Assembly (NCBI GenBank): GCA_051362555.1 | Contig: CM120649.1 | Span: 18,428,567 to 18,492,566, forward strand | Direction of reading: 5' to 3' | Length of the DNA: 64,000 bases | Origin: Lingula anatina | Taxonomy: Eukaryota > Animalia > Brachiopoda | Part shown: piece after piece, positions 1 to 44,240 of the stretch | How the letters are laid out: every line of letters starts with the position of its first letter | Numbering within the stretch: the first letter of the stretch is position 1 | The notes under the pieces: generated by a model | Told to the model about the DNA's origin: nothing | The model's database searches: none | Seen by the model: only the letters and a program-made list of their open reading frames with translations | Made by a program: the position numbers and the translations under genes

Positions 1-400
1 AGCAGATAATCACAGTCCACCAGGTCTAAACTATGCCAGTTCCAATTCATTCACACAAATGATATCACTACATAAAATCAAGCAGAGTTTGACTTTTTAA
101 TCACAAAATATTCAAAATATTTTAGTGATTAATTACAACGGAAGACAGACATTCCCAAAGTTTTAAATGTTTTATTTATCTCCTCAATAAAATATTTTCT
201 GGTGGAGCATCCCACCCTTTCAACAGCAACTTTACCTGTAGTGTTTGCATCTGGTGGCACAATCAATTTTGGAAAAAAACTGGTCAATATATCAGTGATA
301 TCAAACTATGAAACTCAGGGTAACAATTTAGTAAAAGTATGGTAAGCAGACAGCGACAGTCACTGTAATAAACAGTATTTTTAATACTCAGAGAGATTAC

Positions 401-1374
401 CTTTGATCCTCATTGACAAATGTTTCAAAAATCCTTCCTTTCTGCTATCTATGGGTATCAAATGTCTCAAGGGCAAAGGTTCTATTCTCTGTTCTTCACT
501 GGTGATGTCTCTATATACAGGGATGACTTGTTTTTGCTGTGACATTACTACATACATTATCCTTTCTGCTTCATACCTCCAAAAAGGACTAAAGTAAAGG
601 CACATAATTTATGTGAATTTTGCCATATTAAATGACGTAGGAGAGAAAGAAAGCATTTTCAGAATTCATTGACAAAACGAAGAATTGACATAGAAAAAAG
701 TTTCAATTAGAATTCATAAATGATGACAAGAATACACTCTTACAACCTACCACATACTACAAAAATATATTTTAAAAAGTTTTTTTCTAAAAATAGCATA
801 AGTTTCTTTCAAAAAGCATTCTTATTCTGCAAAAATTGGGCTTGTTCCCCTTTGGGTTCAACAGTAAACAATTATTTCACAATTAACTTCTATTAATGGA
901 TTAATTTGTGTGTTCTAACTGTCATTTCTAATGCCTATAACACTGTTGTTAATGAAATGTCAAGTTATGCATTACTTAAATCAAAAATAAAGGAAGCCAG
1001 TTCTTTATCAGTGCATATAGCATATGACAATTTGCACTACACTTAACATTCAAATATAAGGTGTGTAATAGATTCTACCACATCCAGACAGAAATAACAA
1101 ATTTCAAAGAGAGACAACACCTAGCTTATACTTACTCCTGCAGCAGATGTGTAGTTATATACAGCAGTACACTCCTGGATTGTTTCAAGGCATAATCAAA
1201 CATATCCTTTAATCTCATACCATGTAGAGGGTCACTTTCAATCAACATACAAGTCACCCCTTGTCCTGCTAAATCTGGGAAAAATATAAAATATATGTTA
1301 TAATTTCTACTCCAGATACACATGCATTGCAGTAGAACTTACTTAATATCTCTAATTTAAATTAACTGACAATG

Positions 1375-1445
<71 letters not shown>

Positions 1446-1719
1446 CCATTGAGGGTGCTTAATTCTTATTTACTGGTAAAGATAAGTAATATAATTAACT
1501 TACATTCAACAATATGACCTGCCTCCAACATCATCGTAATTGGGAAATAATTTTATACTATAACTTAACATGTTACGTGTTGAATGGCCATAAAACATTT
1601 CTTAGTTCAAAGTATTAAAATGAGTTTTACTCATTTCCACAAACCTTGAGATAGTTGTTCTACCTCCATTTTGTCTCTTGTATGATAAACTATGGATACA
1701 TCATATTCTATATCTTCAC
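401..1719 (-). CDS. TIR cassette D (exons 1645-1719, 1136-1274, 401-588)
   Basis: EDIEYDVSIVYHTRDKMEVEQLSQ-DLAGQGVTCMLIESDPLHGMRLKDMFDYALKQSRSVLLYITTHLLQ-DPFWRYEAERIMYVVMSQQKQVIPVY...; TIR box 1 (YDVxIxY), BB-loop region, SRxxLxxxT and WxxE motifs. Confidence 0.85.
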
Positions 1720-3963
1720 CTAGAAATACACAAGTTATTTACTTATTATATTCATCTTATATACACACTTTGATTCACAGATGTAGCCAAGATCTCATTT
1801 GCTCTCGGAAGATAATTACAGAAGTCAACTGTGTCTAATTATTATGCCAGTTCCAATTCAAGATTCAAAAGACACCACAAAACAAGCTAAGTTTGACTTT
1901 TAAATCACAAAGTATTCAGAATATTTCAGTTATTAATTACTAGGCAGATATACCCACAGTACTTTTAAAAAATTTTTTTATCTCCTTCATAATATTTAAT
2001 GGTGGAGCATCCCACCTCTTCAAACAGCAACTTTGCTTGTTGTGCTTGCATCTGGTGGTATAACAAATTTTGAAAAAAAAAAACAAGTCAATACATGAGT
2101 GATATCAAACTATCAAACTCAGGGTAACAAGTACATGTAGTAGGCTTGTTAAGGACCAAAAAATGGCCAAATGCTCCATTTTGTAGTACAAATGTCTAAC
2201 TTGGCATAAATGTTCCTTGGGCCAAAAGAAAATTTTTTATCCAAAGAGACGCCCTCTATCGATACATTAATTTTGTGCCTCAAATCCAAGATGGCCGCCA
2301 CCCGCCATTTTGAAAGTGGACATAATTTTGCTATTTTATGTTGAATTTTGAAGCGTTTGGTCTAACTATACTTGATATATTTATCGATTCCTACTATTTT
2401 GGGGGTGCAAAAGTCATTTTTGATGTTGTTATGGTGATAGTAGGTGATTTGAAGGAACAAAGAGGGTGTTTTAAGTGCTTACCAAGATATGTGTGAACGC
2501 TGCAAAACCATGGATATTGATAACCCGTATTCAAATATATCTCAATGCAATTTTTTGTTATATACCATCGCTATTGGACTATATTATGAGCAAAAAAACA
2601 CATTTTTACCATTATGGAGGCCATTGTGGCCGTTTTATCCCTCAAATCCAAGATGGCCGCCAAAAACCATTTTGAAATTGGGCATAATTCGCTATTTTGA
2701 AACTATATGTATTACATCTTTGTAAATGAGAAATACGTCGTTTTATATTATTTTCTGGTGCAGAATACATTATCTGTTTCATGAAATGTGAGTACAATCT
2801 ATTTTAGCCTCCAAAATCAATATGCATGTAGGGTTAAGTTGTCAAATAGACTTACATGTGCCATGTAGTCTAATTAGTACAAAATGTTTTATTAAATCCT
2901 AAAGAGCTTGAAACAAGCGTCAGAGACCAAAATGTCTCAATTAAAGGTAAAGAACACATACTTGGTGCTTTGGAGACAATTGGTAGCCATTTTGATCCTC
3001 AAATCCAAGATGGCCGCCAGTCACAATTTTGAAATACGGGTAAGGCTTAACTCATCAATTTGAAGCTATTGCTCTTACACTAGCATGTTATACATCGTTT
3101 CTTATCATTTGGGTTGTAGAAGTCGTGTCTTATCTCTTCTGAGATATAATACAAAAAGAAAATATTATAAGGCTCCAACACCAATACAGGCTTACGTCTT
3201 CACCTTCGCTTGTATACGTCTTGAAGTCAAATTTGTGCAAAAATATGTTATATAACAATTATAAAATGGTTTTGCCAGACATAGATTAAGTGCAAGAGAC
3301 CAGCATGGCTGATTCGACTTTATGGTGACTACTGTTAGCTATTCTGTTGTTCATTTCCAAGAGCCTGTCACTATTTTAAAATGATGGCATAATTTACCTT
3401 TTTGAGCTGTTGGACTTTCATATATGATCGTAATACATCAATTGTTATTATTCTGGAAGTACATAATTAATTTCCGGTGTTATTCTGGTGACAGAGGATA
3501 ATAAAAAGGCATAAGGTGTTTTAAGATGATTCCAAGATGAATTTTCCTGTAGTTGTCATATACTGTAGATGTTTTGTGCTTGTTCGTCCATTGGAAACAA
3601 TGAGAACTATGTAGTTGCCTTATGGATTTCTATTGGTACATGTAGTGAGATGACTTGTCTGGCCAAATTATGCTAGGAATGATCACTGGCACTGTCAACT
3701 AGGAAAAGAGGCTGCTTCCTCGACTTTTTTGCTTTATCCCTCTTGCCTACCTGCGCATGCGCAGCTGCTGCTTTCAAGTTGGTTTTGCAGATTCCTTCTT
3801 TTGTGTAAAGATACCACTTTCCTCTGATGCAACATGTTCTCATGCATTGATGTTTCTCTGGAAACTGGATTTTAATATATTGTTTAGCTGTTTCTCATAG
3901 GACACTAACAAAACCTCAATTCTTACTGGCTGTTGTCTTATTGGCCTACCAGAGCTGATCATG

Positions 3964-4001
<38 letters not shown>

Positions 4002-7000
4002 GCTGCTGGATGATTTTGCAGACAAGATCTGGAGCTATTTCAAAGCAAAGTTTATTAGCTTGTCTTTCACGGGCATTTTCGCATCAATACAACTAACCAA
4101 GTTCCATAGTATTATAAGACAACACATTTTTCACCCTTCAAATCTTCTGGACTATATTTAACATGCAAATGCAAGCCCCAGTGACTGGGACATAAATGTA
4201 CATGTGGCTTTTTGGTTCACATTGACCAGTAAAAGATTAATAATATAATACTGCTTTGTATATATATTTATTGCTTACCTTTAAATTATTCAGTATCTTT
4301 TAGTGGATGGTCACTTAAGATAAATCTAGATGATATATTTGAGCATATGGTTCGGGTTCCACATTTTTGTAACAGACTCAACGAAACTCATCTTGGAATT
4401 TATTTTACAACCTTATATTACGGTACCTTTTTATTATCTTCTGTCACCAAATTAGCACCGTAAAATTACTTTTGAGTCTCCATAATAGTACCATTTTACC
4501 TAATACAAGCCCACAGTTCAAAGGTTATAAATTACACCAAATTATTAAAATAGCGGCATGCAACCAACACTTGGTTTTGATCAAAATAATGGCTAACAAT
4601 TATCCTCATGCGGTGAAAGATGTATTATTTTGCTTTAATTCAGCCATTTTGTTTGCTGACACTTGTTTTATAGATCGGGCAAAAGCAGTTTTGTACTGAT
4701 TGGATTACTAATTGTACATATAAACTGCAGGCCCATGCGGCGACTGAATCCTATATTTATTTGGAGGCTTATAAAAGTTTCTATTTACATTTTAAACCGA
4801 AAATGCATACTGCACCAGGAAATAATAAAAAAAATGACGTATGGCACGCTTTTGAAGGTGTGATACATGTAGTTTCAAAATGGTGAATAATGCTCAATTT
4901 GAAAAAGGCGTATGAGGGTCATCTTGGATTTGAGGCACAAATTTTATGAAACAAATAATGTATTCTGCACCAGAAAATAATATAAAACGACATATTACTC
5001 ATTTACAAAGATGTAATACATGTAATTTCAAAATAGCGAATTATGCCCAATTTCAAAATAGTTATTGGCGGCCATCTTGGATTTGAGGGACAAAACGGCC
5101 ACAATGGCCTCCGTAATGGTAAAAATGAGTTTTTTTGCTCATAATTTAGTCCAATATGGATAGTATATAACAAAAAAATTGCATTGAGATATATTTGAAT
5201 ACGGGTTATCAATATCCATGGTTTTGCAGCGTTCACACATATCTTGGTAGGTACTTAAAACACCCTCTTTGTTCCTTCAAATCACCTACTATCACCATCA
5301 CAATATCAAAAATGACTTTTGCACCCCAAAAATAGTAGGAATCGATATATATATATCAAGTATAGCTAGACCAAACGCTTCAAAATTCAACATAAAATAG
5401 CAAAATTATGTCCACTTTCAAAATGGCGGGTGGCGGCCATCTTGGATTTGAGGCACAAAATGGCCACCAATTGCTTCCAAATGATCAAAAAAGGGTTCCT
5501 TGTCCCTAATTTAGTCAGGTTTAATAATCTATACATGTTTCTAGGCCAAAAATTAATGGAAATATGAAATATTATATATTTTGGCACATAATTTGCATAA
5601 TTTATGCTAATTAATGTATCGATAGAGGGCGTCTCTTTGGATAAAAAATTTTCTTTTGGCCCAAGGAACATTTATGCAAAGTTTGACATTTGTACTATAA
5701 AATGCAGCGTTTGACCTCTTAACAAGCCACTGTAATAAATAACATTTTAATACTCGGGGATATTACCTTTGATCCTCATTGACAAATGTTTCAAAAACCC
5801 TTCCTTTCTGCTATATATGGGTATCAAATGTCTCAAAGGTAAAGGTAATTTTCTCTGTTCTTCACTGGTGATGTCTCCATATACAGGGATGACTTGCTTT
5901 TGCTGTGACATTGCCTCCTGCATTATCATTTCTGCTTGCAGCTCCAACAAATGACTAAAATAAAGAACCACAATTTATGTGAATTTTGCCATATTATTAT
6001 TTGTGTGAGAGAGAGAGAGAGGGACTTTTTTTTCAAAATTCGGTGACAAAAGCAAAGAACAGACAAACACACACACACAAAAACAGTTATAATCAAAGTA
6101 CACAGAAGATGCCAAGAACACACTAGTCTTATAACTTACCACATACTACAAATAAAACATAAACAATTTTTTTTCTAGAGATAGCCTAAGTTTCTTTCAA
6201 AAAGCATTCTTTTTCTGCAAAAATATGGCTTGATCACCTTTTGAATCATAAGTAAACAATAATTTCACAACTAGTATTAATGGATTAATTTGTGTTCTTA
6301 ACTGTCAGTTCTAATACCTATAACAATGTTGTTAATGAAATCTCAAGTTATGAAATACTTGAATCAAAAAAATTAAGTAGCCAGCTCTCTACCAGTGGCA
6401 ATTTGCACTACATTCAAATATAAGGTGTGTAATAGATTCTACCACATCCAGACAGAAATAACAAATTTCAAAGAGAGACAACACCCAGCTTATACTTTTG
6501 CAGGTAATGTGTAGTTATATACAGCAGTGGCCTCCTGGATTGTTTCAAGGCATAACCAAACATATCCTTTAATCTAATTCCAAGTAGAAACCCACTCTCA
6601 ATCAACAGACAAGTCACCCCTTGTCCTGCTAAATCTGGGAAAAATATAAAATATATGCTATAATTTCTATCCAGATACACATGCATTGCAGTAGAACTTA
6701 CTTAATATCTCTTATTTAAATTAACTGACAATGTTATATATATATATATAATTTATCCATTGAGGGTGCTTAATTCTTATTTACTGGTAAAGAAAAGTAA
6801 TATAATTAACTATCATTCAACAATATGACCTGCCTCCAACATCATCGTAATTAGGAAATAATTTTATACTATAACTTAACATGTTACGTGTTGAATGGCC
6901 ATAAAACATTTCTTAGTTCAAAGTATTAAAATGAGTTTTACTCATTTCCACAAACCTTGAGATAGTTGTTCTACCTCCATTTTGTCTCTTGTATGATAAA

Positions 7001-8620
7001 CTATGGATACATCATATTCTATATCTTCCACTAGAAATACACAAGTTATTTACTTATTATATTCATCTTATACACAATTTGATTCACAGATGTAGCCAAG
7101 ATCTCATTTGCTCTCAGAAGATAATTACAGAAGTCAACTGTGTCTAATTATTATGCCAGTTCCAATTCAAGATTCAAAAGACACCACAAAACAAGCTAAG
7201 TTTGACTTTTAAATCACAAAGTATTCAGAATATTTCAGTTATTTATTACTAGGCAAATATACCCACGGTACTTTTAAAATATTTTATCTCCTTCATAATA
7301 TTTAATGGTGGAGCATCCCACCTCTTCAAACAGCAACTTTGCTTGTTGTGCTTGCATCTGGTCGTATAACAAATTTTGAAAAAAAAAACAAGTCAATATA
7401 TCAGTGATATCAAACTATCAAACTCAGGGTAACAAGTACATGTATGGTAAGCTGACAGAGACAGTTACTGTAATAAATAACATTTTAATACTCAGGGATA
7501 TTACCTTTGATCCTCATTGACAAATGTTTCAAAAACCCTTCCTCTCTGCTATCTATTGGAGTCATATGTCTCAAAGGTAAAGGTAATTCTCTCTGTTCTT
7601 CACTGGTGATGTCTCCATATACAGGGATGACTTGCTTTTGCTGTGACATTGCCTCCTGCATTATCCTTTCTGTTTGCAGCATCAAGAAATAACTAAAATA
7701 AAGAACCATAATTTATGTGAATTTTGCCATATTATTATTATTTGTGAGAGAATGACACTTTTTTCAGAATTCATAGACAAACTTAAAGAATTAACACAGA
7801 AAAAATGGTTTCCAGACTCAACTCATAACTTAAATAATAAAACAAAATTTATGTGAATTTTGTGATATGATATTGAAGGATGTGTGAGAGAGAGAGGGAC
7901 TTTTTTCCAAATTCAATGACAAAAGCAAAGAACAGACACACAAAAACAGATACAAATCATACAATCAAAGTATACAGAAGATGCCAAGAATACACTTACA
8001 ACTTACCACATACTGCAAATAATACATAAACAATTTTTTTTTCTGGAGATAGCATAAGTTTCTTTCAAAAAGCATTCTTTTTCTGCAAAAATTTGGCTTG
8101 ATCCCCTTTTGAATCACGAGTAAACAATTATTTCACAACTACTATTAATGGATTAATTTGTGTTCTTAACTGTCAGTTCTAATACCTATAACAATGTTGT
8201 TAATGAAATGTCAAGTTATGAATTACTTGAATCAAAAAAAATAAAGTAACCAGCTCTCTACCAGTACATATAGCATATGGCAATTTGAACTACATTCAAA
8301 TATAAGGTGTGTAATAGATTCTACTATATCCAGACAGAAATAACAAATTTCAAAGAGAGACAACACCTATCTTATACGTACTCTTGTAGGTTATGTGTAG
8401 TTATATACAGCAGTGGCCTCCTGGATTGTTTCAAGGCATAACCAAACATGTTCATTACACTAATTCCAAGTAGAGGGTCATTTTCAAGCAACATGCAAGT
8501 CACCCCTTGTCCTGCTAAATCTGGGAAAAATATAAAATATATGTTATATTTTCTACTCCAGATACACATGCATTTCACTGGAACTTACTTAATATCTCTA
8601 ATTTAAATTAACTGACAATG

Positions 8621-8691
<71 letters not shown>

Positions 8692-11600
8692 CCATTGAGG
8701 GTGCTTAATTCTTATTTACTGGTAAAGATAAGTAATATAATTAACTGACATTCAACAATATAAATTATTATGGTATGTACTTGCAAAAAACCGGGTAAAT
8801 GGACATGTCGTCACAGTTTTACGCTCTATGTATTCCCAATTGCAATCATGTGTTTTAACAAATTTAGGCCTTACTGAGTATTTTAAATGTAACATGGGCA
8901 CTCGACAAGGATGCATGTTAAGTCCTTTTCTATTTACATTATTCATAAATGAATTTTATCATAGTTTGAACAAGGCTGGATGTCAGGGTATTTACATAAA
9001 TGAGGCATTTCCAAATCCACGTCTTTGCTTTATGCTGATGACATTGTACGCATTTCAGACACTGTTGGGGGGTTACAGAAACAAATTTATGAATTAGAGT
9101 TTAGACAAATATTGCAGCCAGTATGGTATGCTAGTAAATGTCCAAAAGATGAAAATAGTAGTATTCAGGAGAGGCGGTAAAATAAAGAAAAATGAAAGGT
9201 GGTTTTTCAAGGGCCAAAAATTAGAAGCAGTACCTGCAGGGCACAAACCACTAAATCAGCCTATCAGCGGCTGTTATAGACGAATGTAGTTCAGTGAGAG
9301 AAAATTAGTGCTTTTTTCCATTTTTTTCCTGGCATTGTAAACTACTGCCATTTTTTTTTTCAGGACCAGGCACAGGTGCGGTGCAGTTGTGAGACCTCTG
9401 GCGGAGGGGGCTACTGACTGGAGTGGTGCAGTGGTTTGTTTACAAACAGAGGGGTGCACATGTTCAAGTGATGCCAGTAAGAAATATTGTTGAATGACAG
9501 TACATTTTTTTGCCATTGGGAGTTATGTCAGTGTGTCTGCTGTCCATGGAGTGGGAAATGTTTCACAGAATAATTTTGTTCATGCAGTTTTGCAGGCATT
9601 TCTTAGTATGGTCGTCAATGGGAAATTATTTGGTGGTTTCTGCCCTGCATATAAATACTTAGGAACATATTTTGGTGCCTGCCTCGGTTAGGGTAAAACT
9701 ATCCAACATCAAATCAACCAAGCCAATAAAGCATTATTTGTTGTTAAGCTATATTTGAAAAAACAAGCATGTATTTCCTTTGAGGAAGCTTTCTTTCTTT
9801 TTGATAGAATGATAACACGCATTCTTTTCTATGGTTATAAACCAGTAGAACGTATTGAAATCTTCCAAGCAAAATTTTGTAGATATTTATGAGGTGTTAG
9901 TTCAAATACTGTGACGGAAGCTGTACTAGGGGAATGCGGAAGATATCCATTGTATACCAATTATATGGTAAATAGCATTAAATATTGGTTAAAGCTTGTA
10001 CATATGAATGAAGATCGCTATCCTGCTCATGTATATGATATGCTATTTAAATTAGATTCAAGTGGAAGGCACACTTGGGCCACAGATGTTAAAATGCTGT
10101 TATACAGATATGAATTTGGATATGTCTGGGAGGCTCAGGGTGTGGGAAATTCTGTTTTATTTATTAAAGTTTTCAGGGAAAGATTAGTAGATAATGCTGG
10201 CCAAATATGGCACAGTGACATACGTAGGAGCAGCAAACTGGATGCTTATTTATTATTTAAGAGTACGTTAACACTGGAGTGTTTCTTATTAAGCGTTAAA
10301 AATGTAAAACACAGAACCTCACTAGCAAGATTCAGATGCGCAAATCACCTACTAAATTAAATATTGAGAGCGGTAGATGGAGAGGAATAGAATGATGCAA
10401 TACACTCTGTTTAATCTGTAAAAAAACATAATATTTATGATGTAGAAGATGAATACCATTTTTTAATGACATGTGTAGCATATACAGAATTAAGAGAAAA
10501 ATATCTGCAAGTGAATAACCCTACTAAAGAAAGTTTTTTAAGATTAATGACCACAAAACATAAATTTAATCTCTAGTCTAGCTGCTTATATATTTAATGC
10601 TTTTATTAACCTTTTTCATCTTTTGCGGAAATACGAAGTGCGCATGACAGGAACCGCGCGCCACAGGGGTCATGGTAGTCCTCTGCTGTTTCCAGCATGG
10701 CAATGCTAGGTGTAGATGGTGTACAAGGTACGCATATAAAAAGGTCGTTTGAAGCGTGCACTGCTTTCTGTCAAACTAAAAAGGTGGCTGAAGCACAGAA
10801 ATGTGTAAACTGTAGGCAAGAAAACAGCTATTTGGATGGAGAATCAAGCAATTAAATTTTTTTTTTCTTGGTTTAAACTAAGATCTAATAAACAGAAAGA
10901 TTGGACAGCGGCATTTTCCCTTTGACCAGACGTTCGTACGGGTAAACATTGCTCTATTGTTCCCCTTAAGTTGTTTTGATAGCCGGGCTTAATTTTAATC
11001 CCCATTGTACCTAACCCGTGTTTAGCGAATAGCGTGATTTCTCGTGCATTCTCGCGGACGCCACATCGTCGTCAAGTAGATCCGCCATATTGGATAAGCA
11101 ATGGCACACGTGGAGTTTTTTTATTAAAAAGTTCTAAAGATGTACAGTTTGTTTACATTTCGTAGTTGTCTTAATACTTTATATTCAGAGGAGGCAATAC
11201 CCAATAGCGCACTACCTGTAACAACAGCTGCCATTTTATAGAAATTGACTCAACTTGGAGATATAGCCGGAAACGTGACGAGATCATCAACGTAACAGAT
11301 AGTGATATTCGATGCCGTTTTGGACAATAAGGTCATGCTAATCACTGGGAGAAACTGAATGGTGAAGCTACACCAAAACAGAAATTTGATCTATTATGCC
11401 TGTTTGTAAAACTTCGTCACTATTAGCGGTCATTCTTTTAGAGCATAATCAATTCAAATTCACCAGAATATTCGTTGCAAATCGGTGAAACAAAAAGGAC
11501 TGAAAAGAAATCTTTTAAGAAAAAGTAGTTTTTAATTTCACTTTCACAAACACTAATTTGGGTACCTACTTCATAATGATAGTGAAAGGTAAGACATATC

Positions 11601-14600: not shown

Positions 14601-17600
14601 TCGGTAAGGGTGGCGGCCTCAACTACGACCTTTCCTCTGTAATTAAAACCTTCTAATTGATAAGTGTTAAATAGGTGAGACAGGAATTCTCGACTCTTTC
14701 CCAGACGATAATTAAAGTTTACCGTGTCTTACTCTAGTATATGTACAAAATTAATGACAGGTAAAAATGTCAGACTTTCAGTCTGACAAGTATGAAAATT
14801 TTGTCAAACTGAAACAAAACTGTCCGGCAAAAACAAAATTATAGCAATAGGCCAAATTATTTGATTTTTAATTGTATTCATGCGTATTTTCATCGTTTTC
14901 AATCAAAGACAATAAAATCATTCAAATAAAGTGTTTTCCACACATTTCATACTTTTCAACTATCTAAGACAATTAAATATAGTAGGCCTACTTTAATGCT
15001 AACCAAATTTGTATTACTTTACAAATACGTTGTTAGATTATTTTTATTATCCATTTTGTCTTTACCATACATGTATTATGCACGTGTAGCTTACAGAAAG
15101 GCTTTTCTGCATTTTTTTTTTTTTTTTTTTTTTTTGTAATAAACAATTTATACCCATTGAATTTTCCAATTCTCTTGTCATTGAGATCAGAAATAAAGAA
15201 CTTTTTATTTTGCCGATAACGCGTTCAACAAGAGCCGATGTACTTTCTTCTTCGTATGTCTCTGTTGATCTTGATAATATGAGCCCCATTTGTACACATC
15301 AGTAATATGTATACGGGACTGGATACATAATAATAAAAATTTTATCCATGTCTCACGTTAAAAAAAATAGAACCAACCCTGTTAAGGGTTATGAGAGACT
15401 AAAACCTGTGATAGGCCTACTACATTTAAAATGATCACTTATCAATAAAACACACACAAAAAGGATATTACATACAAAACTTTTCAAACCTTCTCTTTGT
15501 TGTTACACAAAAAGTTGTGAAAGTTCTTGAATTTTTTGTAAGTACCCCGGTAGAATCCCCGTGAAAAACTTCACAGCTTTTACTTTCTTTTTCCATAATC
15601 TCATGCTTAAAGTCTTTTCTTTCTTTTAAGGCCCCTATTCTTCAGCTTTTTCTTCAGATCTTTATAATGTTTTTTTCTCGCATTGTTTACCCCCGAGTTC
15701 TATTTGCAGATAGTTCGTTATATCCGTTGATTAACTAAGCATTTCTGTTTTTTATTATAGCACCGTTGATCTCCTAATATTATAGTTTTTCTTCTCGCCT
15801 TCGAAATGTTCAGCACAAACGTGATTGGGAAATAATTTTATACTATAACTTAACATGTTACGTGTTGAATGGCCATAAAACATTTCTTAGTTCAAAGTAT
15901 TAAAATGAGTTTTACTCATTTCCACAAACCTTGAGATAGTTGTTCTACCTCCATTTTGTCTCTTGTATGATAAACTATGGACACATCATATTCTATATCT
16001 TCACCTAGAAATACACAAGTTATTTACTTATTATATTCATCTTATACACAATTTGATTCACAGATGTAGCCAAGATCTCATTACTACAGAATTATAGAAT
16101 TACATAGTTACATAATTTACATAACATAATTACAGAAGTCAACTGTGTCTAATTATTATGCCAGTTCCAATTCAGGATTCAAAAGACACCACAAAACAAG
16201 CTAAGTTTGACTTTCAAATCACAAAGTATTCAAAATATTTCAGTAATTAATTACTAGGAAGATACATTATATCCACAGTACTTTTAAAATAATTTTTTAT
16301 CTCCTTGATAATATTTAATGGTGGAGCATCCCACCTCTTCAAACAGCAACTTTGCTTGTTGTGCTTGCATCTGGTGGTATAACAAATTTTGAAAAATAAA
16401 AACAAGTCAATATATCAGTGATATCAAACTATCAAACTCAGGGTAACACGTACATGTATGATAAGCTGACAGAGACAGTTACTGTAATAAACAACATTTT
16501 AATACTCAGGGGTATTACCTTTGATCCTCATTGATAAATATTTCAAAAATCCTTCCTCTCTGCTATCTATTGGAGTCATATGTCTCAAAGGTAAAGGTAA
16601 CTTTCTCTGTTCTTCACTGGTGATGTCTCCATATACAGGGATGACTTGCTTTTGCTGTGACATAGCTGCATCCATTATCCCTTTTCTTTCCATTATCAAC
16701 GAAAAACTAAAATAAAGAACCGTAATTTATGTGAATTTTGGTATATATTAAAAGATTTGTGAGAGAACGGGACTTTTTTCAGAATTCATAGACAAACTTA
16801 AAGGACAATAGCCACAGCATCAGAATGGCCTGAACGGAACATTTTCTTCAGAAAACATGCCCAACTAACGATATCTTTATCCAAACACACAAATTAAAAG
16901 CTCATTTTGTAAATTTTTGGCTTTAAAAAACGTCCTATTTGCTCCGCCTGGGAGTTAATGAGCTATGTGGTCACGTTGTCCAATGACGACAATCGTGCCA
17001 CCGGAGAAGAAAGCGTGCTTAGCTGTCAAACTGAGCTGCGTTGTCTACCTGTAAGATGACTTTTTGACAACTGATAAAAGTTCATACTCTTCAAATCTCT
17101 TACCAGTGGGGTCTAAATCCCCGTGAAGCTGTGTAAAACCATTTCCAGTCTATTCAATTCTTTAACAAGCAATTAATTATGGTTATCCCAAGTTGTATAA
17201 AACACTGCATTTGAATGACTTAAGGGTACTGTTGATTATTGCATATGAGGTCCGTGTTATTTGTGAAATTCAATTTATTTTATTAAACCTCTGACACCCC
17301 GTCTTGCATACTTTTATTTAACTGAGGTAAACAATGCCTGTTACCTTTACAAGTCCTATCTTAATCATCCATCTAACTGGAACTTCCTTTACCTCTTAAT
17401 TAGAGGGTTAAATGGCATTCAATTCTCCTCCCCAATCCAACTCTCGCTGACGATATTTATCTCAGGTAAAAATCTACCTGTGCGTTAGTTTCAAAGAGCA
17501 GCTCCCGCAGACCTGGGGGTACTAGATAAAATCTGAATACCAGGTTTATCGAGGAGCTAGAGAAACAAAGAATTTTTCCTGCACAGCTTCATAGGAATTT

Positions 17601-20600: not shown

Positions 20601-21987
20601 TACTCCTTACCAGGTTAAATCTCCATGCATAATTTAAAATGTACTAACGTATGTAAAACTGCACATTTAGTAAACACATTAAATTAATGATTTTTATGTA
20701 TACATATAGCCATCATCTGCGTCTGTCGTCGCCGTCGCCGTCGTCGCCGTCGCCGTGCACTTTTACCGATAACACGATAAGTGGAAAACCATTTTACCTT
20801 TTGACTTGAAACTTGCAGAACTGATGAATATTCATAATACGCAGGTCAAGTTCGAAAATCAGCATGATCGGGTCACTTTTAGGGAATTTATGCAGTTTTT
20901 TCACTTTTTTCAGCATATATGCAGCACCGATAACACGATAAGTGGAAAACCATTTTACCTTTTGACTTGAAACTTACAGAACTGATGAATATTCATAATA
21001 CGCAGGTCAAGTTCGAAAATCAGCATGATCGGGTCACTTTTAGGGAATTTATGCTGTTTTTTCACTTTTTTCAGCATATATGCAGCACCGATAACACGAT
21101 AAGTGGAAAACCATTTTACCTTTTGACTTGAAACTTACAGAACTGATGAATATTCATAATACGCAGGTCAATTTCGAAAATCAGCATGATTGGGCTATTT
21201 TGAGGGAATTTATGCTGTTTTTTCACTATTTTCAATATAAATGCAACACTGATAACACAATATAAGAAAAACGGATTGGCCAATTGTAATTATACTCACA
21301 GGAGTGGTCAATCTTACTAAAACGCAGGTTGAGTTCGAAAATCAGCATAATCGGGCCATTATTTTAGAAGTTATACTGTTTTTTTCACATTTCCTCAGAT
21401 TCAATTCTTAAGCATGTTAACAGTCTCATTATTTAACTAATAAGATGCCTAAAAGTGTTTGTTTGATATTTCCTGCATCTTTACAACATTGTTAGTTGAT
21501 TATGTAAAAAACATGGTAAACTTGTTATCATGTATTGTGTAATAAAGTGTCAACAAGGCAGCAAAGCTGTCAAATGTACAGACAAAAAAACAGAAAATAA
21601 AGATGCAAATAAGTGAAAAATTAAATTTTCACAAAAAACTGTTAAATTGCCAGAAAAATTTACCAAACAGACTGCGTTGCCTATTGAAGCTGTATGTTAG
21701 ACCCATGTTTCTTTCCTGTAAGTTTGAGAACAGTAAGTGACATGATTTCCCTTAAATGGTCATCATAGGAGCAGTGCACAAAATAGGGGTTTCTTCAAAT
21801 TTTGATGCAACATTACATAATGTTTAACAGCATAATGACAATCAAATGTTATTAATAAAATATTAGTAACATGTTCATTCAGAAAATGTGACAAGCAAAA
21901 GTCTTCAGGATCATGGAACTTTAAAGTCACACCTTTAAAATGCCAATATGTGAAAAATTAAATTTTCAAAAAAAACTGTTTAACTGC

Positions 21988-22036
<49 letters not shown>

Positions 22037-23666
22037 AAATACAAAACAGACTGCATTGCCTACTGAACCTGTATTTTAGTCCCATGTTTCTTTCCTGTAA
22101 GTTTGAGAACAGTAAGTGACATGATTTTCCTTAAATGGTCAAAATAGGGGTTTCTTCAAATTTTGATGCAATATTACATAATGTTTAACAGCTTAATGAC
22201 CATCAATTTTTAATTATAAAATATTTGTATCACAGATATTCAGAAAATGTGACTAGCAAAGGTCTTCAGGCCCATGGAACTTCAAAGTCACACCTTGAAA
22301 ATGCCAAAATGTAAACAAGACAGAACTGTTCTGAAATGGGTTTATTTCCATTTTTAACACTTTTTTAACATAAAACAAAATAAACATTTTACTGCCATTT
22401 TTATATGACCAACTAAGAAAATTGATGAGATGGGAAAAGTATCAATAGAACAGTGTTAAATGTCCAATTTCCTCCATTCTGAGATTCTGAACATAGTGGA
22501 TGATTGAATCTGACAAACTGCAATGATATGAGTTTATTTCCATTTTTGACACTTTATTACACAATACATGATAACAAGTTTACCATGTTTTTTACATAAT
22601 CAACTAACAATGTTGTAAAGATGCAGGAAATATCAAACAAACACTTTAAGGCATCTTATTAGTTAAATAATGAGACTGTTAACATGCCTAATAACTGAAT
22701 CTGAGGAAATGTGAAAAAAAAGTATAACTTCTAAAATAATGGCCCGATTATGCTGATTTTCGAACTCAACCTGCATTTTAGTAAGATTGACCACTCCAGT
22801 GAGTATAATTACAATTGGCCAATCCGTTTTTCTTATATTGTGTTATCAGTGTTGCATTTATATTGAAAATAGTGAAAAAACAGCATAAATTCCCTAAAAA
22901 TGGCCCAATCATGCTGATTTTCGAACTTGACCTGCGTATTATGAATATTCATCAGTTCTGTAAGTTTCAAGTCAAAAGGTAAAATGGTTTTCCACTTATC
23001 GTGTTATCGGTGCTGCATATATGCTGAAAAAAGTGAAAAAACAGCATAAATTCCCTAAAAGTGACCCGATCATGCTGATTTTCAAACTTGACCTGCGTAT
23101 TATGAATATTCATTAGTTCTGCAAGTTTCAAGTCAAAAGGTAAAATGGTTTTCCACTTATCGTGTTATCGGTAAAAGTGCACGGCGACGACGGCGACGAC
23201 GGCGACGACAGACGCAGATGATGGCTATATGTACAGACACATCTGTGTCTGTACATAAAAATGGAAATAAACTCATATCATTGCAGTTTGTCAGATTCAA
23301 TCATCCACTATGTTCAGAATCTCAGAATGGAGGAAATTGGACATTTAACACTGTTCTATTGATACCTTTCCCATCTCATCAATTTTTTTAGTTGGTCATA
23401 TAAAAATGGCATTAAAATGTTTATTTTGTTTTATGTTAAAAAAGTGTTAAAAATGGAAATAAACCCATTTCAGAACAGTGCTGTCTTGTTTACATTTTGG
23501 CATTTTCAAGGCGTGACTTTGAAGTTCCATGGGCCTTAAGACCCCTATTTTGGGCACTGCTTCCATGATGACCATTTAAGGAAAATCATGTCACTTACTG
23601 TTCTCAAACTTACAGGAAAGAAACATGGGACTAAAATACAGCTTCAGTAGGCAATGCAGTCTGTTT

Positions 23667-23715
<49 letters not shown>

Positions 23716-26700
23716 GCAGTTAAACAGTTTTTTGTGAAAATTTAATTTTTCACATATTGGCATTTTCAAGGTGTGACTTTGAAGTTCCATGATCTTGAAG
23801 ACTTTTGCTTGTCACATTTTCTGAATGTCCATGTTACTAATATTTTATTAATAACATTTGATTGTCATTATGCTGTTAAACATTATTTAATGTTGTATCA
23901 AAATTTGAAGAAACCCCTTTTTTGGGCACTGCTCCTATGATGACCATTTAAGGGAAATCATGTCACTTACTGTTCTCAAACTTATAGGAAAGAAACATGG
24001 GACTAAAATACAGTTTCAATAGGTAACGCAGTCTGTTTGGTAAATTTTTCTGGCAATTTAACAGTTTTTTGTGAAAATTTAATTTTTCACTTATTTGCAT
24101 CTTTATTTTCTATTCTTTGTCTGTACATTTGACAGCTTTGCTGCCTTGTTTTTAATGCTACTAGTAGCAAACAATGCTTTTTTTCTTGATCTGCTATATG
24201 TTTTTGGGTTTGACAAAGCTTACAAATTTGCAAAAAATTTTGCGTACAGACGCAGAACTTGCGTTTCAAGTTATAAAATGATAAATCTTTTAAATTATTT
24301 AATATTTCAAATGAAATAACCATCAGAAACAAATCCTCAAAGCATAAACGAATTAGGATAACAAACCATTTTATTACAGCAGTTCCCATTTTTTCTTTAA
24401 TATACCGCTCTTTTTCCTGTTTTTCCACAACACGTTTTCTTCCACGGAAGTAATGCCTGGGCATACGCATGCTTCAAGATACCCTGAGAGCAATTACTTT
24501 TATTAATGTTCGCGACCGTGTTTGAACTTAATTGTTTAAATATTAATATTTAACGTCATTTACAAATACCAATAAAATAACCCCATGAAGTAAATGAGAT
24601 ATATTGAAAAATATGAAAGCCCACCAAGACGAGTTGGATACCTGTTATTACCTGGCTTGGGAGGTGCAGCAGTGCATAATTAACAGGTTTTATTGTTAAC
24701 GAGCACTTGGTGAACTACAATGCATTTGAAATGCATCAGCAATTAGTAAGTTTGCCAATTGATGACAGTTAATCTAAAAGACTATCAGCTTTTGATATGA
24801 TCTAAAACACCTGAGGTGACCGAGATCTGGAGCATCGCAATTATTGTCACCGAAGTTAGTAAGTAAGTCACAGAAGACCGTCACAGACAAAGAAAGATTG
24901 TCAAGGAGTGCTGCAATTTTGGTGAATCCCACGGCAACACACTGAGGCATAATGTACTTTCCTAAACTATTCTGTCTGTATGCATCATGCAGTTCAGTTG
25001 AGTCTCATAGACCTTTATCCTCATTGCCGTCACAGTACCACGTGACCCAGATCTGTTGCTTCATTTATGCATATTGAGGTGAGGTTTACTAAAACGCTTT
25101 TTTTTCTACTAATATATTGTTTTTATAATTTTTAAATGGCAGGGATTGATTAAGACATACATCTTGTGAATAGATTGAGTGCTGAATCTTCAGAATTTGA
25201 GAAATGGATTTTTATGTGGCTATTGTCCTTTAAAGAATTAACACAGAAAAAAGTTTCCAGACTCAACTCATAACTTAAATAATAAACCAAATTTTATGTA
25301 AATTTTGTCATATGATATTAAAGGATGTGTGAGAGAGAGAGGGACTTTTTTCAAAATTCAATGAGAAAAGCAAAGAACAGACACACAAAAACAGATACAA
25401 TCAAAGTACTGTATACAGAAGATGCCAAGAATACACTTACAACTTACCACATACTACAAATAATACATAAACAGATTTTTTTCTGTAGATAGCATAAGTT
25501 TTTTTCAAAAGCATTCTTATTCTGCATAAATTTGGCTTGATCCCCTTTTGAATCACAAGTAAACAATAATTTCACAACGACTATTAATGGATTAATTTGT
25601 GTTCTTAACTGTCATTTCTAATACCTATAACACTGTTGTTAATGAAATGTGTAGTTATACATTACTTAAATCAAAAATTAAGTAACCAGCTCTCGACCAG
25701 TGTATATAGCATATGGCAATTTGCACTACATTCAAATATAATGTGTGTAATAGATTCTACCACATCCAGACAGAAATAACAAATTTCAAAGAGAGACACC
25801 TTATACTTACTCATGCAGGTAATGTGTAGTTATATACAGCAGTATTCTCCTGGATTGTTTCAAGGCATACTGAAGCATATCCTTTACTTTATTTTCAAAA
25901 GGAGAGTCACTTTCAATCAACATACAAATCACCCCTTGTCCTGCTAAATCTGATAAAATGTAAAATATATGTTAAATATTCAACTCCAGATATACATGCA
26001 TTTCACTGAAACTTACTTAATGTATTCAATTTATATTAAATGTAATATAGATTATTTACCTGTAGAATATGCCTCTTATTTAGTAGTAAGTAATATAATT
26101 AACTTACGGTAAAGTGCCATGAATTTCGAACGGCTCTTGAATTTCGAACGATCTTAAAATCGGCCGTCTGGAGTTTTTTCTGGACCATGAATTTCGGCCA
26201 GTAAGCAATTTTGCGCGATCTTGATTTCGTGAATTTCGTACCCCTTAAAATCGGCCACCGGGCTATTCTCGTGCTTATAAAGATTTAACAGTCGGCAATG
26301 TTGGCCTCGCGTACCTTTACCTGAGTACTACGTGTGCGGCCCAAGGTGCAAGATAACGATCGGTACAGTTAGTTTAGGACGCTAAACAACATCGTCATAT
26401 CCATTCATTCAGATAACAGGAGAATCTATTAAGAGTTGTACCTGTCGGGCTGTTGATTCTTTACCGCAGTATCCGGTGTGAGATAGCGATCGGTAGTTTT
26501 GCTGAGGCGCACAATAGCATTGTTAACAGTAGAGACTTCAGTAACAGGACAAAAGAGCAATATTAAGAGCTGCAGTAAAAATTACCATTATTGCTTTCTT
26601 GTCTCGCTCAGATCGTTCACGATCTCCCGCTGACGATCTTCCCCTAATGAAGTTCCTTGAAATGTACAAATGAAATGAAAAATATTTTTAAAAATTTATA

Positions 26701-29700
26701 AATTTCAATGGGGGGGGGGATGGGGGGGGGGGGATGGGGGGTTAAAAACAATCGAGAACGATCTCCGGCTGACGATCTTCCGCAAACGAAAGTCACTGAA
26801 AGAGTATGAGCTTTCTCGTTTCACTCGGATTGCGACGCTGACGATACGAAAATTGCGTTCTCGTCTCGCCCTTTGGCTTACGAAGTCTCTTTAACAAATA
26901 TGAAAATTGCCTCCTGGTCTCTCTCGGATTGCGAACGATCTCTCGCTGAAAATTTGAAATTTTCCTTTTTGTCAATCAGCTTTGTCAGTTGCCGTGCGTA
27001 TGAAGGTCCGGAAGGTGTCCCCTTTCACAAATTGGCCTGTAGTTTGCTTAGTGTTTTGTACCGCATGAAGGTCACTCTTGTCACGGCGTGGAATGTGTAT
27101 CTTAAAGTTCATAGAAGCATTTTATTGTGTTTTGTAAGCTTTAGGAAGTAGTTTCGTTGTGACTGAATATCAGCGTACACTACAAAGTAGTACCATTCAT
27201 CTGTGACGCATCATAAAAGCAAGGTACGTCAAATTACTCTAAGAAAATTTCTTACAACGTCCAAGGCTGTCCCGACAAGCCAAGACGTCATTAAAAAAGT
27301 CGCAAGCCGTCTAGCCGTCTTTGAAAATATAGGCCGTCCGGTGATGTCAGCGGCCGTCCAAATGACGGCTGGACGGTTCACTGGGAAAAGCCTTGCTCAT
27401 AAGGGTATATTTATTTAACTAGGGGCTTACTGACATCACCCAGCTTACATGCGGGTGCCTCCCAAAATTATATTAAAGGATAAAATTGTAATATATCTAA
27501 GTTTAATTGTTTGTAAATTTTGTAAAAATTGCCCATGCCACCCCGTTAGTTTGGAGGGTTAAGCTGGATCAAGTCCGTGTCAAAATTCTTTGAAGCTTTG
27601 CAGGAAAAATCAATCTTCCTTTGTTTCTCTGGCTCCTTGTTTAGCCCGATGATCAGATTTATCTAGTGCCCCCACGTCTGCTGGAGCAGCTCTTTGAAAA
27701 TAACACACAGGTAGATTTTTATCTGAGATAAATATCGCGTTCGATACACTCAAGACAAAAGCTACCTGTGAGCTGAAGGGCACTTTACCCTCTAATTAAG
27801 AGGTAAAGGAAGTTCCAGCTAGATGGACGATTAAGATCGGACTTCAGATGGTAACTAGGACGGTTGGACCATATCCTGTAACTAGTATTGTTTACCTCAG
27901 TTCTGTGAAAGCAAACGAGAAGGGTGTCAGAACAATGGTGCATATATAAATTATACAGAGAATTTGTACATTCAGTTGACGTTAACTTATAATCGAAGGG
28001 GATTTTCGATAATATTCCTTGAAAAGTACACTAGATTTATAGAGAATAATATCATGGTTGGCCAAAAAATTATATACGCACAGTGTATCAGTGTATGCCT
28101 GGTTACGCCCCTGTCGCAAACCAGCAAACCATACCCTGCTGACTACATGAAAATTGCCTTCTAGCATGGACAAAAAGTCCAAGTTTCTATGCTTGCTCGG
28201 ATCGCTGACGATCTCTTGCTGACGAATAAAGTAACAAAGTCCCTTGAACTAGTGTGGAAATTGGCTTATTGTCGCGCTCAGATCGCTCACTATCTCCCAT
28301 TGACGATCTTCCAGTCCCTTGAACGAATATAAAAACTGCCTTTTCGGTTTACTCTAGATTACCTACAGGTATCTCTCGCGTTTGTTTGAAATGGTTTCAA
28401 TGACAAAACGTGCACGCTTTTCAAATGCGTACATTGACGCAACTATGCGCCAGGAAATCAGTTGCTGCTGCTGGTCAAGATTGGGTTGCCTGAGCGAAAA
28501 AAAAATGGCCCTAACCCCCCCCCCCTCAAACCTAGTATATTTGATCACAGACAACAATCAGCGGTCATCTTGGTCGCAGCGCACGACGGAGAGAGACCGT
28601 AATACAAAGTTCGGCTGCCGTGGCGAAGGCTACCTGTGCGCCGCACATACCGATCTGCGGTCGTAGTGGCCTCCCCGCACGGAGGAGGCCGGATTCTGCA
28701 GGGAAGGCTACGTATGCGTCGGAGACACCGACCCGCGAACGATGAGATGAGGCCGCATTCGCGCGTAAAGCTCCGCCCGACTTTAACGGTAAAGGCAACG
28801 AACCTGGTCGCGGAAGACACTTGTCGCAGATGAAGGCTACCTGCACGTGTGCCATAGACAGGTTTCAGTGCACGGAAAGGAGCAACGGTAACACTAATCT
28901 TCCATAGTAAAGGTAATCTGGCCGTGGCAGACGCTAATCGTCGGCCGTCTCTCCCTCCGTCCACTCCCGTTCTGAGCGCCAGGATCGTTTTTGGAAAACG
29001 ACACTACTGATAACGATGTTTTGCGGCCCTAGACAACAGTACAACTCTATCTATGGGCCATACACAGTGATCGGGTGAAAGTACGTGTACACCTTTGGTC
29101 GCAATTACCGACACTCACACATCATACATTATGGTAACTCTAAATAGATCGTCGGGAGAAGCTAACAGAAGGCCTAGCGACGAACAGACAACTTCCGGTC
29201 AAAATTGACAGAATTCCATGAAATTCGAACGTTTGGAAGTTCTGAGCACCTCCATTTCATGAATTTCGGCCAGAACGATCTTTTCCCAAATTTAATTATT
29301 TTCTACTGTTCGAAATTCATGGCACATTACCGTACATTCAACAATATGACATGCCTCCAACATCTATTGATTGGAAAATAATTTCTTTACTATAACTTCA
29401 TTATCACATGTTGAATGGCCATAAACTATTTCTTAGTTCAAAGTATTAAACTGTGTTATATTCATCTCCACAAACCTTGAGATAGTTGTTCTACCTCCAT
29501 TTTGTCTCTTTTGTCATAAAAAATGGACACATCATATTCTTCCCCTGGAAATACACATTGTCAAGTTATTTACTTATCATACTGATCTTGCACAAACTTT
29601 GATCTGGGAAAATGATAAAGGGATAATAACTCTTCGTATGAGATCTATATTTCACAATAAAAACATTGTGAATAACTCATAGAACTATAATATATTCTGT

Positions 29701-43920: not shown

Positions 43921-44240
43921 TTATGTTGAAGAAAAATAGAGCGTTCACATAAAAGCATGGTAATATATCCAAAGAACTTCTTCTAACTTCATATGGCATG
44001 TGATATACTTGGAGCTATGAGCTTTTATAGATATATAAATATATATAATATGTATATAACAATATATATTCATTAATGCAGATGAAAGTGATCATTACCC
44101 TGCACCATCCCCTCAAAATTATAAAAAAAAAAAATAAAAAGATTTGCATTAGCTTTGTGAACACAAAGTTCAAAGAAACAAAGGGGTGTAAATGAGTTTC
44201 CAAAGTAAAATAATATTACTGATAAATAAATATTAAATTA

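What the first reader, a model, noticed from the sequence alone, without database searches (positions are those of the whole stretch)
401..29544. Tandem poly-TIR gene built from a duplicated symmetric three-exon cassette
Seen: four copies of a 75(69)+139+188-nt exon trio with intact AG/GT sites, phases 1-1-2-1 and no stops. Bases 1-130 match the intron that precedes exon 1, so at least one more cassette probably lies off the left edge. Known: the motifs (YDVxIxY, SRxxLxxxT, WxxE, VIPV) are TIR-type, and animal TIR proteins usually carry one TIR. Inference: one protein with four or more tandem TIRs, which could pre-assemble a TIR filament or oligomer, or a set of freely skippable cassettes. The frame survives more than 20 kb of intronic TE insertion, which suggests selection.
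Basis: partly seen in the sequence, partly recalled or inferred. Interest (0 to 1): 0.9.

Follow-up and report, generated by a model that had tools for sequence, protein, structure and literature searches.

The report
Brachiopod poly-TIR array with variable surfaces
A gene, most likely from a brachiopod, holds at least four back-to-back copies of an immune-signalling module (TIR) in one open reading frame; the copies differ mainly on two surfaces predicted to bind partners, so it likely encodes a multi-headed adaptor or decoy rather than an enzyme.

Summary
Observation confirmed, on the minus strand: four intact three-exon cassettes (69/75+139+188 nt), and a fifth should start about 85 nt past the left edge, which is the gene's 3' side. 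Three more upstream exons extend the frame to 618 aa with no stop. Each cassette is one TIR domain. A two-cassette Lingula anatina relative (72-86% identical per unit) scores Pfam TIR_2 at E 7e-25 and folds as two TIRs. RNA reads show all three junction types, including exon 3 to exon 1, but mostly from other alleles or copies; no read links two named cassettes of this window. New: (1) the nearest other relative is the N-terminal TIR of Lingula TIR-STING (45-47%); (2) 43 of 63 amino-acid differences fall in two 16-codon windows (BB loop/alphaB and alphaC), and exon 2 has diverged more than its introns; (3) the catalytic-position Glu is Gln in 2 of 4 units and the preceding Trp is lost in 4 of 4, so an NADase is doubtful; (4) a neighbouring paralogue fuses the same exon 3 to ZU5-UPA-death-CARD. 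Two-TIR animal proteins are published; I found no 4+ array.

The parts
36553..36642 (-). Exon-1-like exon (90 nt) holding the likely start codon; a degenerate N-terminal fragment of the TIR
   Evidence: AG/GT ends; 96.6% identical to residues 1-28 of RefSeq LOC106160267; low confidence (pLDDT under 50) in the model of that protein
36225..36314 (-). Second exon-1-like exon (90 nt)
   Evidence: 85% identical to residues 26-59 of P0001
33340..33402 (-). Truncated exon-2 remnant: acceptor intact, similarity ends after about 15 codons and a stop follows; end coordinate approximate; likely skipped
   Evidence: blastn/tblastx, translation
30430..30504 (-). Extra intact exon 1 (75 nt, phase 1-1) with no exon 2 or 3 of its own
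   Evidence: in frame in the 618-aa model
29476..29544 (-). Cassette A exon 1 (69 nt; betaA-alphaA)
25811..25949 (-). Cassette A exon 2 (139 nt; betaB, BB loop, alphaB, betaC)
   Evidence: alone only a weak TIR_2 hit, E 0.19
16519..16706 (-). Cassette A exon 3 (188 nt; alphaC to alphaE); helix-C Glu kept
15930..16004 (-). Cassette B exon 1 (75 nt)
8382..8520 (-). Cassette B exon 2 (139 nt)
7505..7692 (-). Cassette B exon 3 (188 nt); helix-C Glu replaced by Gln
6956..7030 (-). Cassette C exon 1 (75 nt)
6496..6634 (-). Cassette C exon 2 (139 nt); weak donor gtataa
   Evidence: no listed RNA joint at this donor
5767..5954 (-). Cassette C exon 3 (188 nt); helix-C Glu replaced by Gln; closest window match to the TIR exon of RefSeq LOC106174229 (51 of 59 residues)
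1645..1719 (-). Cassette D exon 1 (75 nt)
   Evidence: RNA joint 1274/1645, 3 reads in X7
1136..1274 (-). Cassette D exon 2 (139 nt)
   Evidence: TIR_2 E 0.047 alone; RNA joints at both ends
401..588 (-). Cassette D exon 3 (188 nt); helix-C Glu kept
   Evidence: reads join its 3' end to an exon 1, in frame for the X1/X3 joint
1..400 (-). Intron homologous to the exon3-to-exon1 intron; next acceptor predicted about 85 nt beyond base 1
50658..57121 (-). Upstream paralogue ('gene A'): TIR exon 3 (57121-56937), linker exons (56662-56364, 55867-55828), ZU5 (55406-54962), UPA-like exons (54603-54453, 53663-53442, 53153-52971), Gln-rich plus death-like exon (52374-51316), CARD-like last exon (51056-50658, stop)
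   Evidence: Nine exons, eight GT-AG introns, 993 aa with no internal stop; Pfam ZU5 E 4e-21, CARD E 0.003 below cut-off; ZU5/UPA clusters at 0.95 for the RefSeq paralogue; the death-like label is my reading, no Pfam hit; splicing not tested with reads

Best explanation
The region holds four exon trios in one open frame, each a TIR domain closest to the first TIR of Lingula TIR-STING, and it likely encodes a single cytosolic protein of five or more TIRs that would act as a mostly non-enzymatic, multivalent TIR-binding scaffold. Shown: cassette anatomy, open frame, TIR fold of the two-unit relative, family-level splicing at all three junction types, divergence focused on the BB loop/alphaB and alphaC, Glu-to-Gln in units B and C. 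Inferred: the array grew by unequal crossing-over of a phase-1 cassette, and exon 2 and the start of exon 3 are reshuffled between copies and alleles. Each head would then offer a slightly different binding face. By avidity the chain would read an assembled TIR filament (most plausibly TIR-STING, or a pathogen TIR mimic) rather than free monomers. It would then either pass the signal on through a ZU5-UPA-death-CARD tail like the neighbouring paralogue's, or, lacking that tail, cap and damp the filament. The binding partner, the C-terminus and the direction of the effect are untested.
For: 618-aa frame without stops from 15 exons. Two-unit RefSeq relative P0001: TIR_2 E 7e-25, 2 stretches; AlphaFold with alignment pLDDT 75.5, pTM 0.70; both halves match TIR structures at Z up to 15.7. 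Exon3-to-exon1 reads: X1 8 reads from 4 starts, X3 2 reads, in frame. Three RefSeq proteins also run across a cassette boundary (P0001, P0002, P0004). Exons 2 and 3 keep their exact length in 4 of 4 units while flanking introns show 125 gap events over six pairwise comparisons; stop-free in 0.8% of 4000 neutral simulations; pN/pS 0.40 outside the two hot regions. 43 of 63 differences lie in two 16-codon windows, reached by 0 of 5000 shuffles. Exon 2 C vs D 12.9% diverged against 1.6% in flanking intron, Fisher p 4e-5. Reads carry further in-frame alphaC variants and join D-type exon 2 to A-, B- and C-type exon 3. Best non-family hit among 1.84 billion representatives is Lingula TIR-STING, E 5e-26; the next unrelated hit is E 2.5e-7; window units are 45-47% identical to its first TIR. 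TIRAP has Gln at the same column and BtTir Glu. BB loop and alphaC patches mediate TIR-TIR binding, and the Glu does not predict catalysis (PMC7075850, passages). RefSeq LOC106174229 (TIR exon-ZU5-CARD) is only 59-66% identical to gene A, and its TIR exon matches cassette C (51 of 59) better than gene A (41 of 59), so it could be the counterpart of this array's missing 3' end.
Against: No listed RNA joint links two named window cassettes. Depth over exons of A, B and C is mostly under 1 at 92% likeness, X4 shows no exon3-to-exon1 joint, and the X7 joint (4 reads) has an unresolved frame. Each exon 3 can read through its donor to a stop six codons on, and RefSeq P0001 ends that way after two TIRs. 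Cassette C's exon-2 donor is weak and has no read support. Whole-unit dN/dS is 0.54-0.84. In the hot regions pN/pS is only 1.29 and 1.12 and silent divergence is raised too (0.23-0.30 vs 0.12), so gene conversion or relaxed constraint explain them as well as positive selection; the regions were chosen after looking and the pairs are not independent. The tree did not give starred support to a cassette plus TIR-STING clade. Other members of the ZU5-CARD family carry death/CARD N-termini rather than TIR (P0005, P0024), so the TIR-ZU5 fusion may be a prediction artefact. Units A and D keep the Glu.
Confidence: 0.5

Rival explanations
1. The array is a splice-combinatorial library. Any same-type jump (exon 1 to a later exon 2, exon 2 to a later exon 3, exon 3 to a later exon 1) keeps the frame, and intronic stops end the protein early. 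The products would be short one- to three-TIR isoforms, some chimeric, rather than one long chain.
For: Phase symmetry; read-through stop six codons past the donor and an ATTAAA 15 nt into the intron in 4 of 4 units; weak donor in C; P0001 ends after two TIRs; joint 1274/15930 looks like a skip from B exon 1 to D exon 2.
Against: Exon 1 of B, C and D differs by only 1-4%, so that joint cannot be placed. The mixed exon2/exon3 reads run backwards in this window's order, so they reflect other alleles or copies, not skipping. Exon-3 donors are strong (AAG|gtaat). The read-through tail may be shared simply by descent.
Confidence: 0.22
2. The array is a covalently pre-assembled TIR NADase or signal-making enzyme. 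Glu-bearing units A and D would be catalytic and Gln units would supply BB loops.
For: Glu kept in 2 of 4 window units and 4 of 4 RefSeq units; pTM 0.70 suggests the two TIRs of P0001 pack in a defined way; TIR NADases need oligomers (PMC9402430, passages).
Against: The Trp four residues before the Glu is lost in all window units and the BB loop is the most variable part, the opposite of a conserved active site; reads show Gln, Asp and Thr variants in this helix; the Glu is common in non-catalytic TIRs (PMC7075850).
Confidence: 0.13
3. The copies are young, largely dispensable tandem duplicates of a TIR-only gene, drifting with occasional gene conversion; the chain has no function beyond that of one unit.
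For: dN/dS 0.54-0.84; a broken exon 2, orphan exon 1 copies and a weak donor; low read depth; the RefSeq model of the likely counterpart has two units.
Against: No stops (0.8% of neutral simulations), no net indels in exons 2 and 3, pN/pS 0.40 in the core; change is clumped on two surfaces.
Confidence: 0.11
4. The array is an assembly artefact in which haplotypes of a shorter gene were laid in tandem.
For: No genome or long DNA reads were available to test it; about 1 kb of C and D introns is 96-100% identical; 40726-41640 repeats 63089-64000 at 99.3%.
Against: Four units differ 16-27% in protein and carry different insertions; more than two versions cannot come from two haplotypes; cross-cassette junctions exist in RNA and in RefSeq models.
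Confidence: 0.04

Closest known systems
Lingula anatina LOC106160267 (XP_013392269; also LOC112041404, LOC106167235), uncharacterised RefSeq models
   Same: Same N-terminal exons (96.6% and 85%) and the same cassette; units 72-86% identical
   Different: Modelled with two TIRs and an intronic stop, or as fragments; this window has at least four units and a fifth intron. No description found in print.
Lophotrochozoan TIR-STING (Lingula LOC106169291, TIR-STING-TIR-STING; oyster structures 6WT6/6WT7)
   Same: Window units are 45-47% identical to its first TIR; best non-family hit; 6WT7 ranks 3rd in Foldseek
   Different: No STING domain in the window (tblastn); canonical Trp and the RDF-x-PG BB loop lost; TIRs directly abut
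Mollusc Toll-2 with tandem TIRs (PMC4929906, abstract read)
   Same: An animal protein with more than one TIR; positive selection and intragenic recombination reported; two TIRs gave stronger signalling
   Different: Membrane receptor with two TIRs; here no LRR or membrane exon was found, and there are four or more units from one exon cassette
TIRAP/MAL-type bridging adaptors
   Same: Top Foldseek hits; Gln at the helix-C Glu position as in units B and C; TIR-only scaffold role
   Different: Single TIR, about 21% identity, conserved rather than variable BB loop
ZU5-UPA-death-fold proteins (UNC5, PIDD, NLRP1/CARD8 FIIND-CARD)
   Same: Gene A and LOC106174229 have ZU5, UPA-like and CARD-like parts
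   Different: N-terminal module is a TIR exon here, death/CARD in paralogues; autoproteolysis not tested; whether the array itself ends this way is unknown
Bacterial multi-TIR proteins (3-4 TIR_2 stretches, e.g. a four-TIR SAVED protein)
   Same: Several TIRs in one chain
   Different: 24-28% identity, TIRs mostly separated by longer linkers or other domains; no sign of kinship beyond the fold

Membership tests
TIR domain (PF13676/PF01582) | Profile match above the curated cut-off | tested here: met
   Met through P0001 (88.3 bits vs 28), whose units are 72-86% identical to the window's. Single window exons score only E 0.047 and 0.19 for 2 of 4 exon-2 copies, and none of 3 exon-3 copies tried hits TIR. 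The spliced window units were not scanned directly.
TIR domain (PF13676/PF01582) | Flavodoxin-like alpha/beta TIR fold | tested here: met
   Model of P0001, pLDDT 75.5; Z 13-15.7, rmsd 2.4-3.5 A over 111-137 residues for both halves in the 50 rows shown. The single-sequence model was unusable (pLDDT 35.7).
TIR NADase (SARM1, plant and bacterial TIRs) | Catalytic Glu in helix C | tested here: inconclusive
   Glu in A and D, Gln in B and C
TIR NADase (SARM1, plant and bacterial TIRs) | Trp four residues before the Glu (motif seen in BtTir and TIR-STING; its role in the pocket is recalled) | tested here: not met
   Ser, Phe, Leu, Phe in A-D; Trp in TIR-STING
TIR NADase (SARM1, plant and bacterial TIRs) | NAD+ cleavage | not testable with these tools
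   Needs an assay
TIR-STING | STING ligand-binding domain | tested here: inconclusive
   No STING-like exon in the 64 kb, but the gene's 3' end lies outside the window
TIR-STING | TIR descended from the TIR-STING TIR | tested here: inconclusive
   45-47% identity and best hit; tree fork left open
Toll-like receptor with tandem TIR (mollusc Toll-2) | LRR ectodomain and membrane helix before the TIRs | tested here: not met
   The model starts with exon-1-like fragments; P0001 has only TIR families; no long LRR frame among 13 ORFs of 120 aa or more
ZU5-UPA-death-fold adaptors (gene A) | ZU5 followed by UPA and a death-fold domain | tested here: met
   ZU5 E 4e-21; UPA by Atlas features on P0003 only; CARD below cut-off
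ZU5-UPA-death-fold adaptors (the array itself) | Same tail spliced after the last cassette | not testable with these tools
   3' end is off the window and no genome is held
ecTIR-DC families of Gerdol et al. 2017 | Family-defining domain architectures | not tested
   Definitions seen only second-hand (PMC6321704 passages; PMC8662601 section 8 and supplement hits)

The most novel reading that the evidence does not exclude
A copy-number-variable, exon-shuffled array of TIR heads taken from TIR-STING, hypervariable on both binding faces and fused to a ZU5-UPA-death-CARD tail. It is a diversified intracellular reader of TIR filaments that couples invertebrate STING (or pathogen TIR mimics) to caspase-type death, and so names a downstream adaptor for animal TIR-STING.
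Probability: 0.2. Interest if true: 0.88.

Novelty: new variant of a known kind. Interest (0 to 1): 0.63.

Why it matters
TIR domains normally gain valency by assembling on a signal, and their binding loops are conserved within a family. Here valency appears hard-wired in the gene and the binding loops are the fastest-changing part, the pattern expected of a recognition module in an arms race. The domain's closest kin is the TIR of TIR-STING, whose downstream partner in animals I did not find described in the papers read. The array and its ZU5-CARD neighbour give concrete candidates that can be tested with purified domains. It also offers a natural series of TIR variants (Glu vs Gln, different BB loops) in one frame.

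Tried and rejected
No genome is held, so the array could not be extended leftwards. The run search listed no indexed RNA holder; nine raw-read runs were offered by species label and 4 of 9 were laid, 6-25% of each read. No reads were laid on 17,201-64,000, so the 5' exons, cassette A exons 1-2 and gene A have no RNA test. Single-sequence AlphaFold of P0001 gave pLDDT 35.7 and was discarded. Word-index searches found no relatives outside Lingula: 3 of 3814 candidates for exon 3, 1 of 5312 (itself) for P0001, 2 of 2250 for the ZU5-UPA region; these searches are length-limited and weak for distant kin. P0005 (1343 aa) looked like a TIR-extended form of P0003 by length but has a repeat and a CARD instead. 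P0006-P0009 in the same cluster are unrelated 43-44 aa peptides and were ignored. The tree of 17 TIR rows left the position of the cassettes open. Pfam gave no death or UPA hit on single exons of gene A. No complex prediction was run: any TIR pair could pass by likeness to solved filaments. Ten paper searches listed no animal protein with four or more tandem TIRs and no mention of LOC106160267, judged from listings and abstract starts. Gerdol et al. 2018 on Lingula immunity is not held and Gerdol et al. 2017 was not looked up; either, or their supplements, may already describe this family. The Atlas showed a mollusc cluster (87 members, 699 aa, only TIR families) aligning over both TIRs of P0001, so multi-TIR proteins may be commoner in lophotrochozoans than the papers found suggest; its TIR count was not checked. 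Four look-ups of earlier scan notes gave nothing on this; one unrelated note on Brinker arrays was shown and not used.
Full report
Observation. A six-frame motif scan and self-BLAST placed all copies on the minus strand. No unit has a stop. Bases 400-1 match the intron that leads from exon 3 to the next exon 1 and stop 85 nt short of its acceptor, so the gene continues off the left edge at its 3' side. Adding the three intact upstream exons gives 618 aa without a stop.

Identity. An exon-3 profile found three proteins among 3814 candidates, all Lingula anatina RefSeq models. P0001 (LOC106160267) starts with the window's two exon-1-like exons (96.6% and 85%) and holds two cassettes, so the window is very likely Lingula and this gene its counterpart. 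P0001 scores TIR_2 at 88 bits with two stretches. With a 23-row alignment it folds at pLDDT 75.5, pTM 0.70, and both halves match TIR structures (Foldseek top hits TIRAP and oyster TIR-STING; Z up to 15.7). Window units are 72-86% identical to P0001's, so the TIR call carries over. The spliced window units were not scanned directly, and single exons give only weak hits.

Origin. An unindexed search of 1.84 billion representatives returned 10 proteins. The best was Lingula LOC106169291, a TIR-STING-TIR-STING protein (E 5e-26). The rest were the family's own P0003, multi-TIR proteins at 24-28% (those with names are bacterial), and a two-TIR goby protein. Window units are 45-47% identical to its first TIR. 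The tree left that fork open, so descent from TIR-STING rests on identity and rank. No STING exon lies in the window.

Expression. Four of nine offered RNA runs were laid on 1-17200, 6-25% of each read. Joints: exon 1 to exon 2 (1274/1645, 3 reads in X7; 1274/15930, 3 reads from one start in X1 and 4 in X7). Exon 2 to exon 3 (3 reads in X4; sets of 4, 5, 7 and 3 in X7). Exon 3 to exon 1 (15993/400: 8 reads from 4 starts in X1, 2 in X3; 15995/400: 4 in X7; none in X4). The X1/X3 joint translates in frame and matches the junction in P0001; the frame of the X7 joint is unresolved. Most reads are 90-99% alike, so they come largely from other alleles or copies. The exon-3 side matches D, whose next exon lies off the window, and no listed joint links two named window cassettes. 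Depth over A, B and C exons is mostly below 1. Nothing beyond 17,200 was tested with reads.

Selection and variation. Exons 2 and 3 keep their exact length in all four units, while 100-nt intron flanks show 125 gap events over six pairwise comparisons. Neutral simulation left all four stop-free in 0.8% of 4000 runs. Whole-unit dN/dS is 0.54-0.84. Change is clumped: 43 of 63 differences fall in two 16-codon windows, reached by 0 of 5000 shuffles. They map to the BB loop/alphaB and alphaC, with pN/pS 1.29 and 1.12 against 0.40 elsewhere. Exon 2 is more diverged than its own flanking introns in 3 of 3 comparisons among B, C and D (C-D 12.9% vs 1.6%, p 4e-5); pairs with A were not put to this test, and there the upstream flank is about as diverged as the exon. 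Reads add four more alphaC sequences and pair D-type exon 2 with A-, B- and C-type exon 3. Silent sites are also raised in the hot regions, the regions were picked after inspection and pairs are not independent, so conversion from divergent donors is as good an account as positive selection.

Catalytic site. BtTir's Glu aligns to P0001's helix-C Glu and TIRAP has Gln there. Units A and D keep Glu, B and C have Gln, and the Trp four residues earlier is lost in all four. PMC7075850 (passages) reports that this Glu is common in non-catalytic TIRs and rare in TIRAP and MyD88, and that BB loop and alphaC patches mediate TIR-TIR binding. A scaffold fits better than an enzyme.

Neighbour. The exon 3 at 57121 splices on paper through eight GT-AG introns into a 993-aa frame with ZU5, UPA-like, Gln-rich, death-like and CARD-like parts, ending in a stop at 50658. 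It is a separate gene upstream. Its own exons 1-2 were not found in 57.2-64 kb. RefSeq P0003 has the same layout but is only 59-66% identical, and its TIR exon is closer to cassette C (51 of 59) than to gene A (41 of 59). This hints that the array may end in such a tail. Against this, paralogues P0005 and P0024 start with death/CARD modules, and each exon 3 can read through to a stop, as P0001 does.

Mechanism. I favour one multi-headed, mostly non-catalytic scaffold whose heads differ on the two binding faces and which reads assembled TIR filaments by avidity, most plausibly TIR-STING (0.5). The single-chain architecture alone I put near 0.7; partner and output are inferred. Rivals: a library of short or chimeric isoforms (0.22), a pre-assembled NADase (0.13), neutral duplicates (0.11), mis-assembly (0.04).

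Known versus new. Two tandem TIRs are published for mollusc Toll-2 (PMC4929906, abstract), and an amoeba protein has two (PMC13142454, passages). Invertebrate TIR architectures are known to be diverse (PMC8662601, passages, section 8 and supplement hits; PMC6321704 passages; PMC8609888 passages; PMC8195603 passages). TIR NADases need oligomers (PMC9402430 passages). Ten searches listed no animal array of four or more, but the two Gerdol papers most likely to cover it were not read, and the Atlas shows a mollusc TIR-only cluster that may be multi-TIR. Verdict: a real, selected, family-expressed poly-TIR gene; a new variant of a known kind; interest 0.63.

Noticed in passing
window 10890-14150, minus strand: An element inside the B exon1-exon2 intron, bounded by inverted ends (reads join 10907 and 14127 on opposite strands), makes its own spliced RNA: GT-AG joints 12378/12915 (30 reads over 4 runs) and 12984/14008 (15 reads). 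It holds a 188-nt tandem repeat and only a short frame; likely a non-autonomous DNA transposon with an expressed relic.
   Followed up: partly
window 50658-57121, minus strand: Paralogous gene with TIR exon, ZU5, UPA-like, Gln-rich repeats (81-nt unit at 52001-52278), death-like and CARD-like parts; Lingula relatives swap the N-terminal module between TIR, CARD and death-CARD.
   Followed up: partly
window 44065-44242 and 44643-44712: Remnants matching the 3' flank of gene A (50118-50388) at 75% and 94%, split by an insertion; a trace of another tandem copy or a shared repeat.
   Followed up: partly
window 40726-41640 and 63089-64000: 915-nt duplicate at 99.3% identity with a 22-nt minisatellite, running to the right edge; a recent mobile element or segmental copy.
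   Followed up: no
window 2165-5716: Insertion with long inverted arms (2270-2790 vs 5461-4938, 95%) in the C-to-D intron; transcribed copies exist elsewhere.
   Followed up: no
window 17300-24150: Nested inverted and 160-161-nt tandem repeat elements filling the exon2-exon3 intron of cassette A.
   Followed up: no
window 9893-10360 (+) and 60831-61358 (+): Fragments resembling the end of a LINE frame (my reading, no Pfam hit) and a zinc-knuckle/protease retroelement piece (zf-CCHC E 0.36).
   Followed up: no
window 7689-7946 and 25254-25379: The acceptor region before exon 3 is duplicated (period about 142 nt) in cassette B and appears as an orphan copy in cassette A's intron; possible decoy acceptors.
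   Followed up: no
P0010/P0019 (Lingula LOC106169291, LOC106167497): Internally duplicated TIR-STING-TIR-STING proteins of 704 aa.
   Followed up: partly
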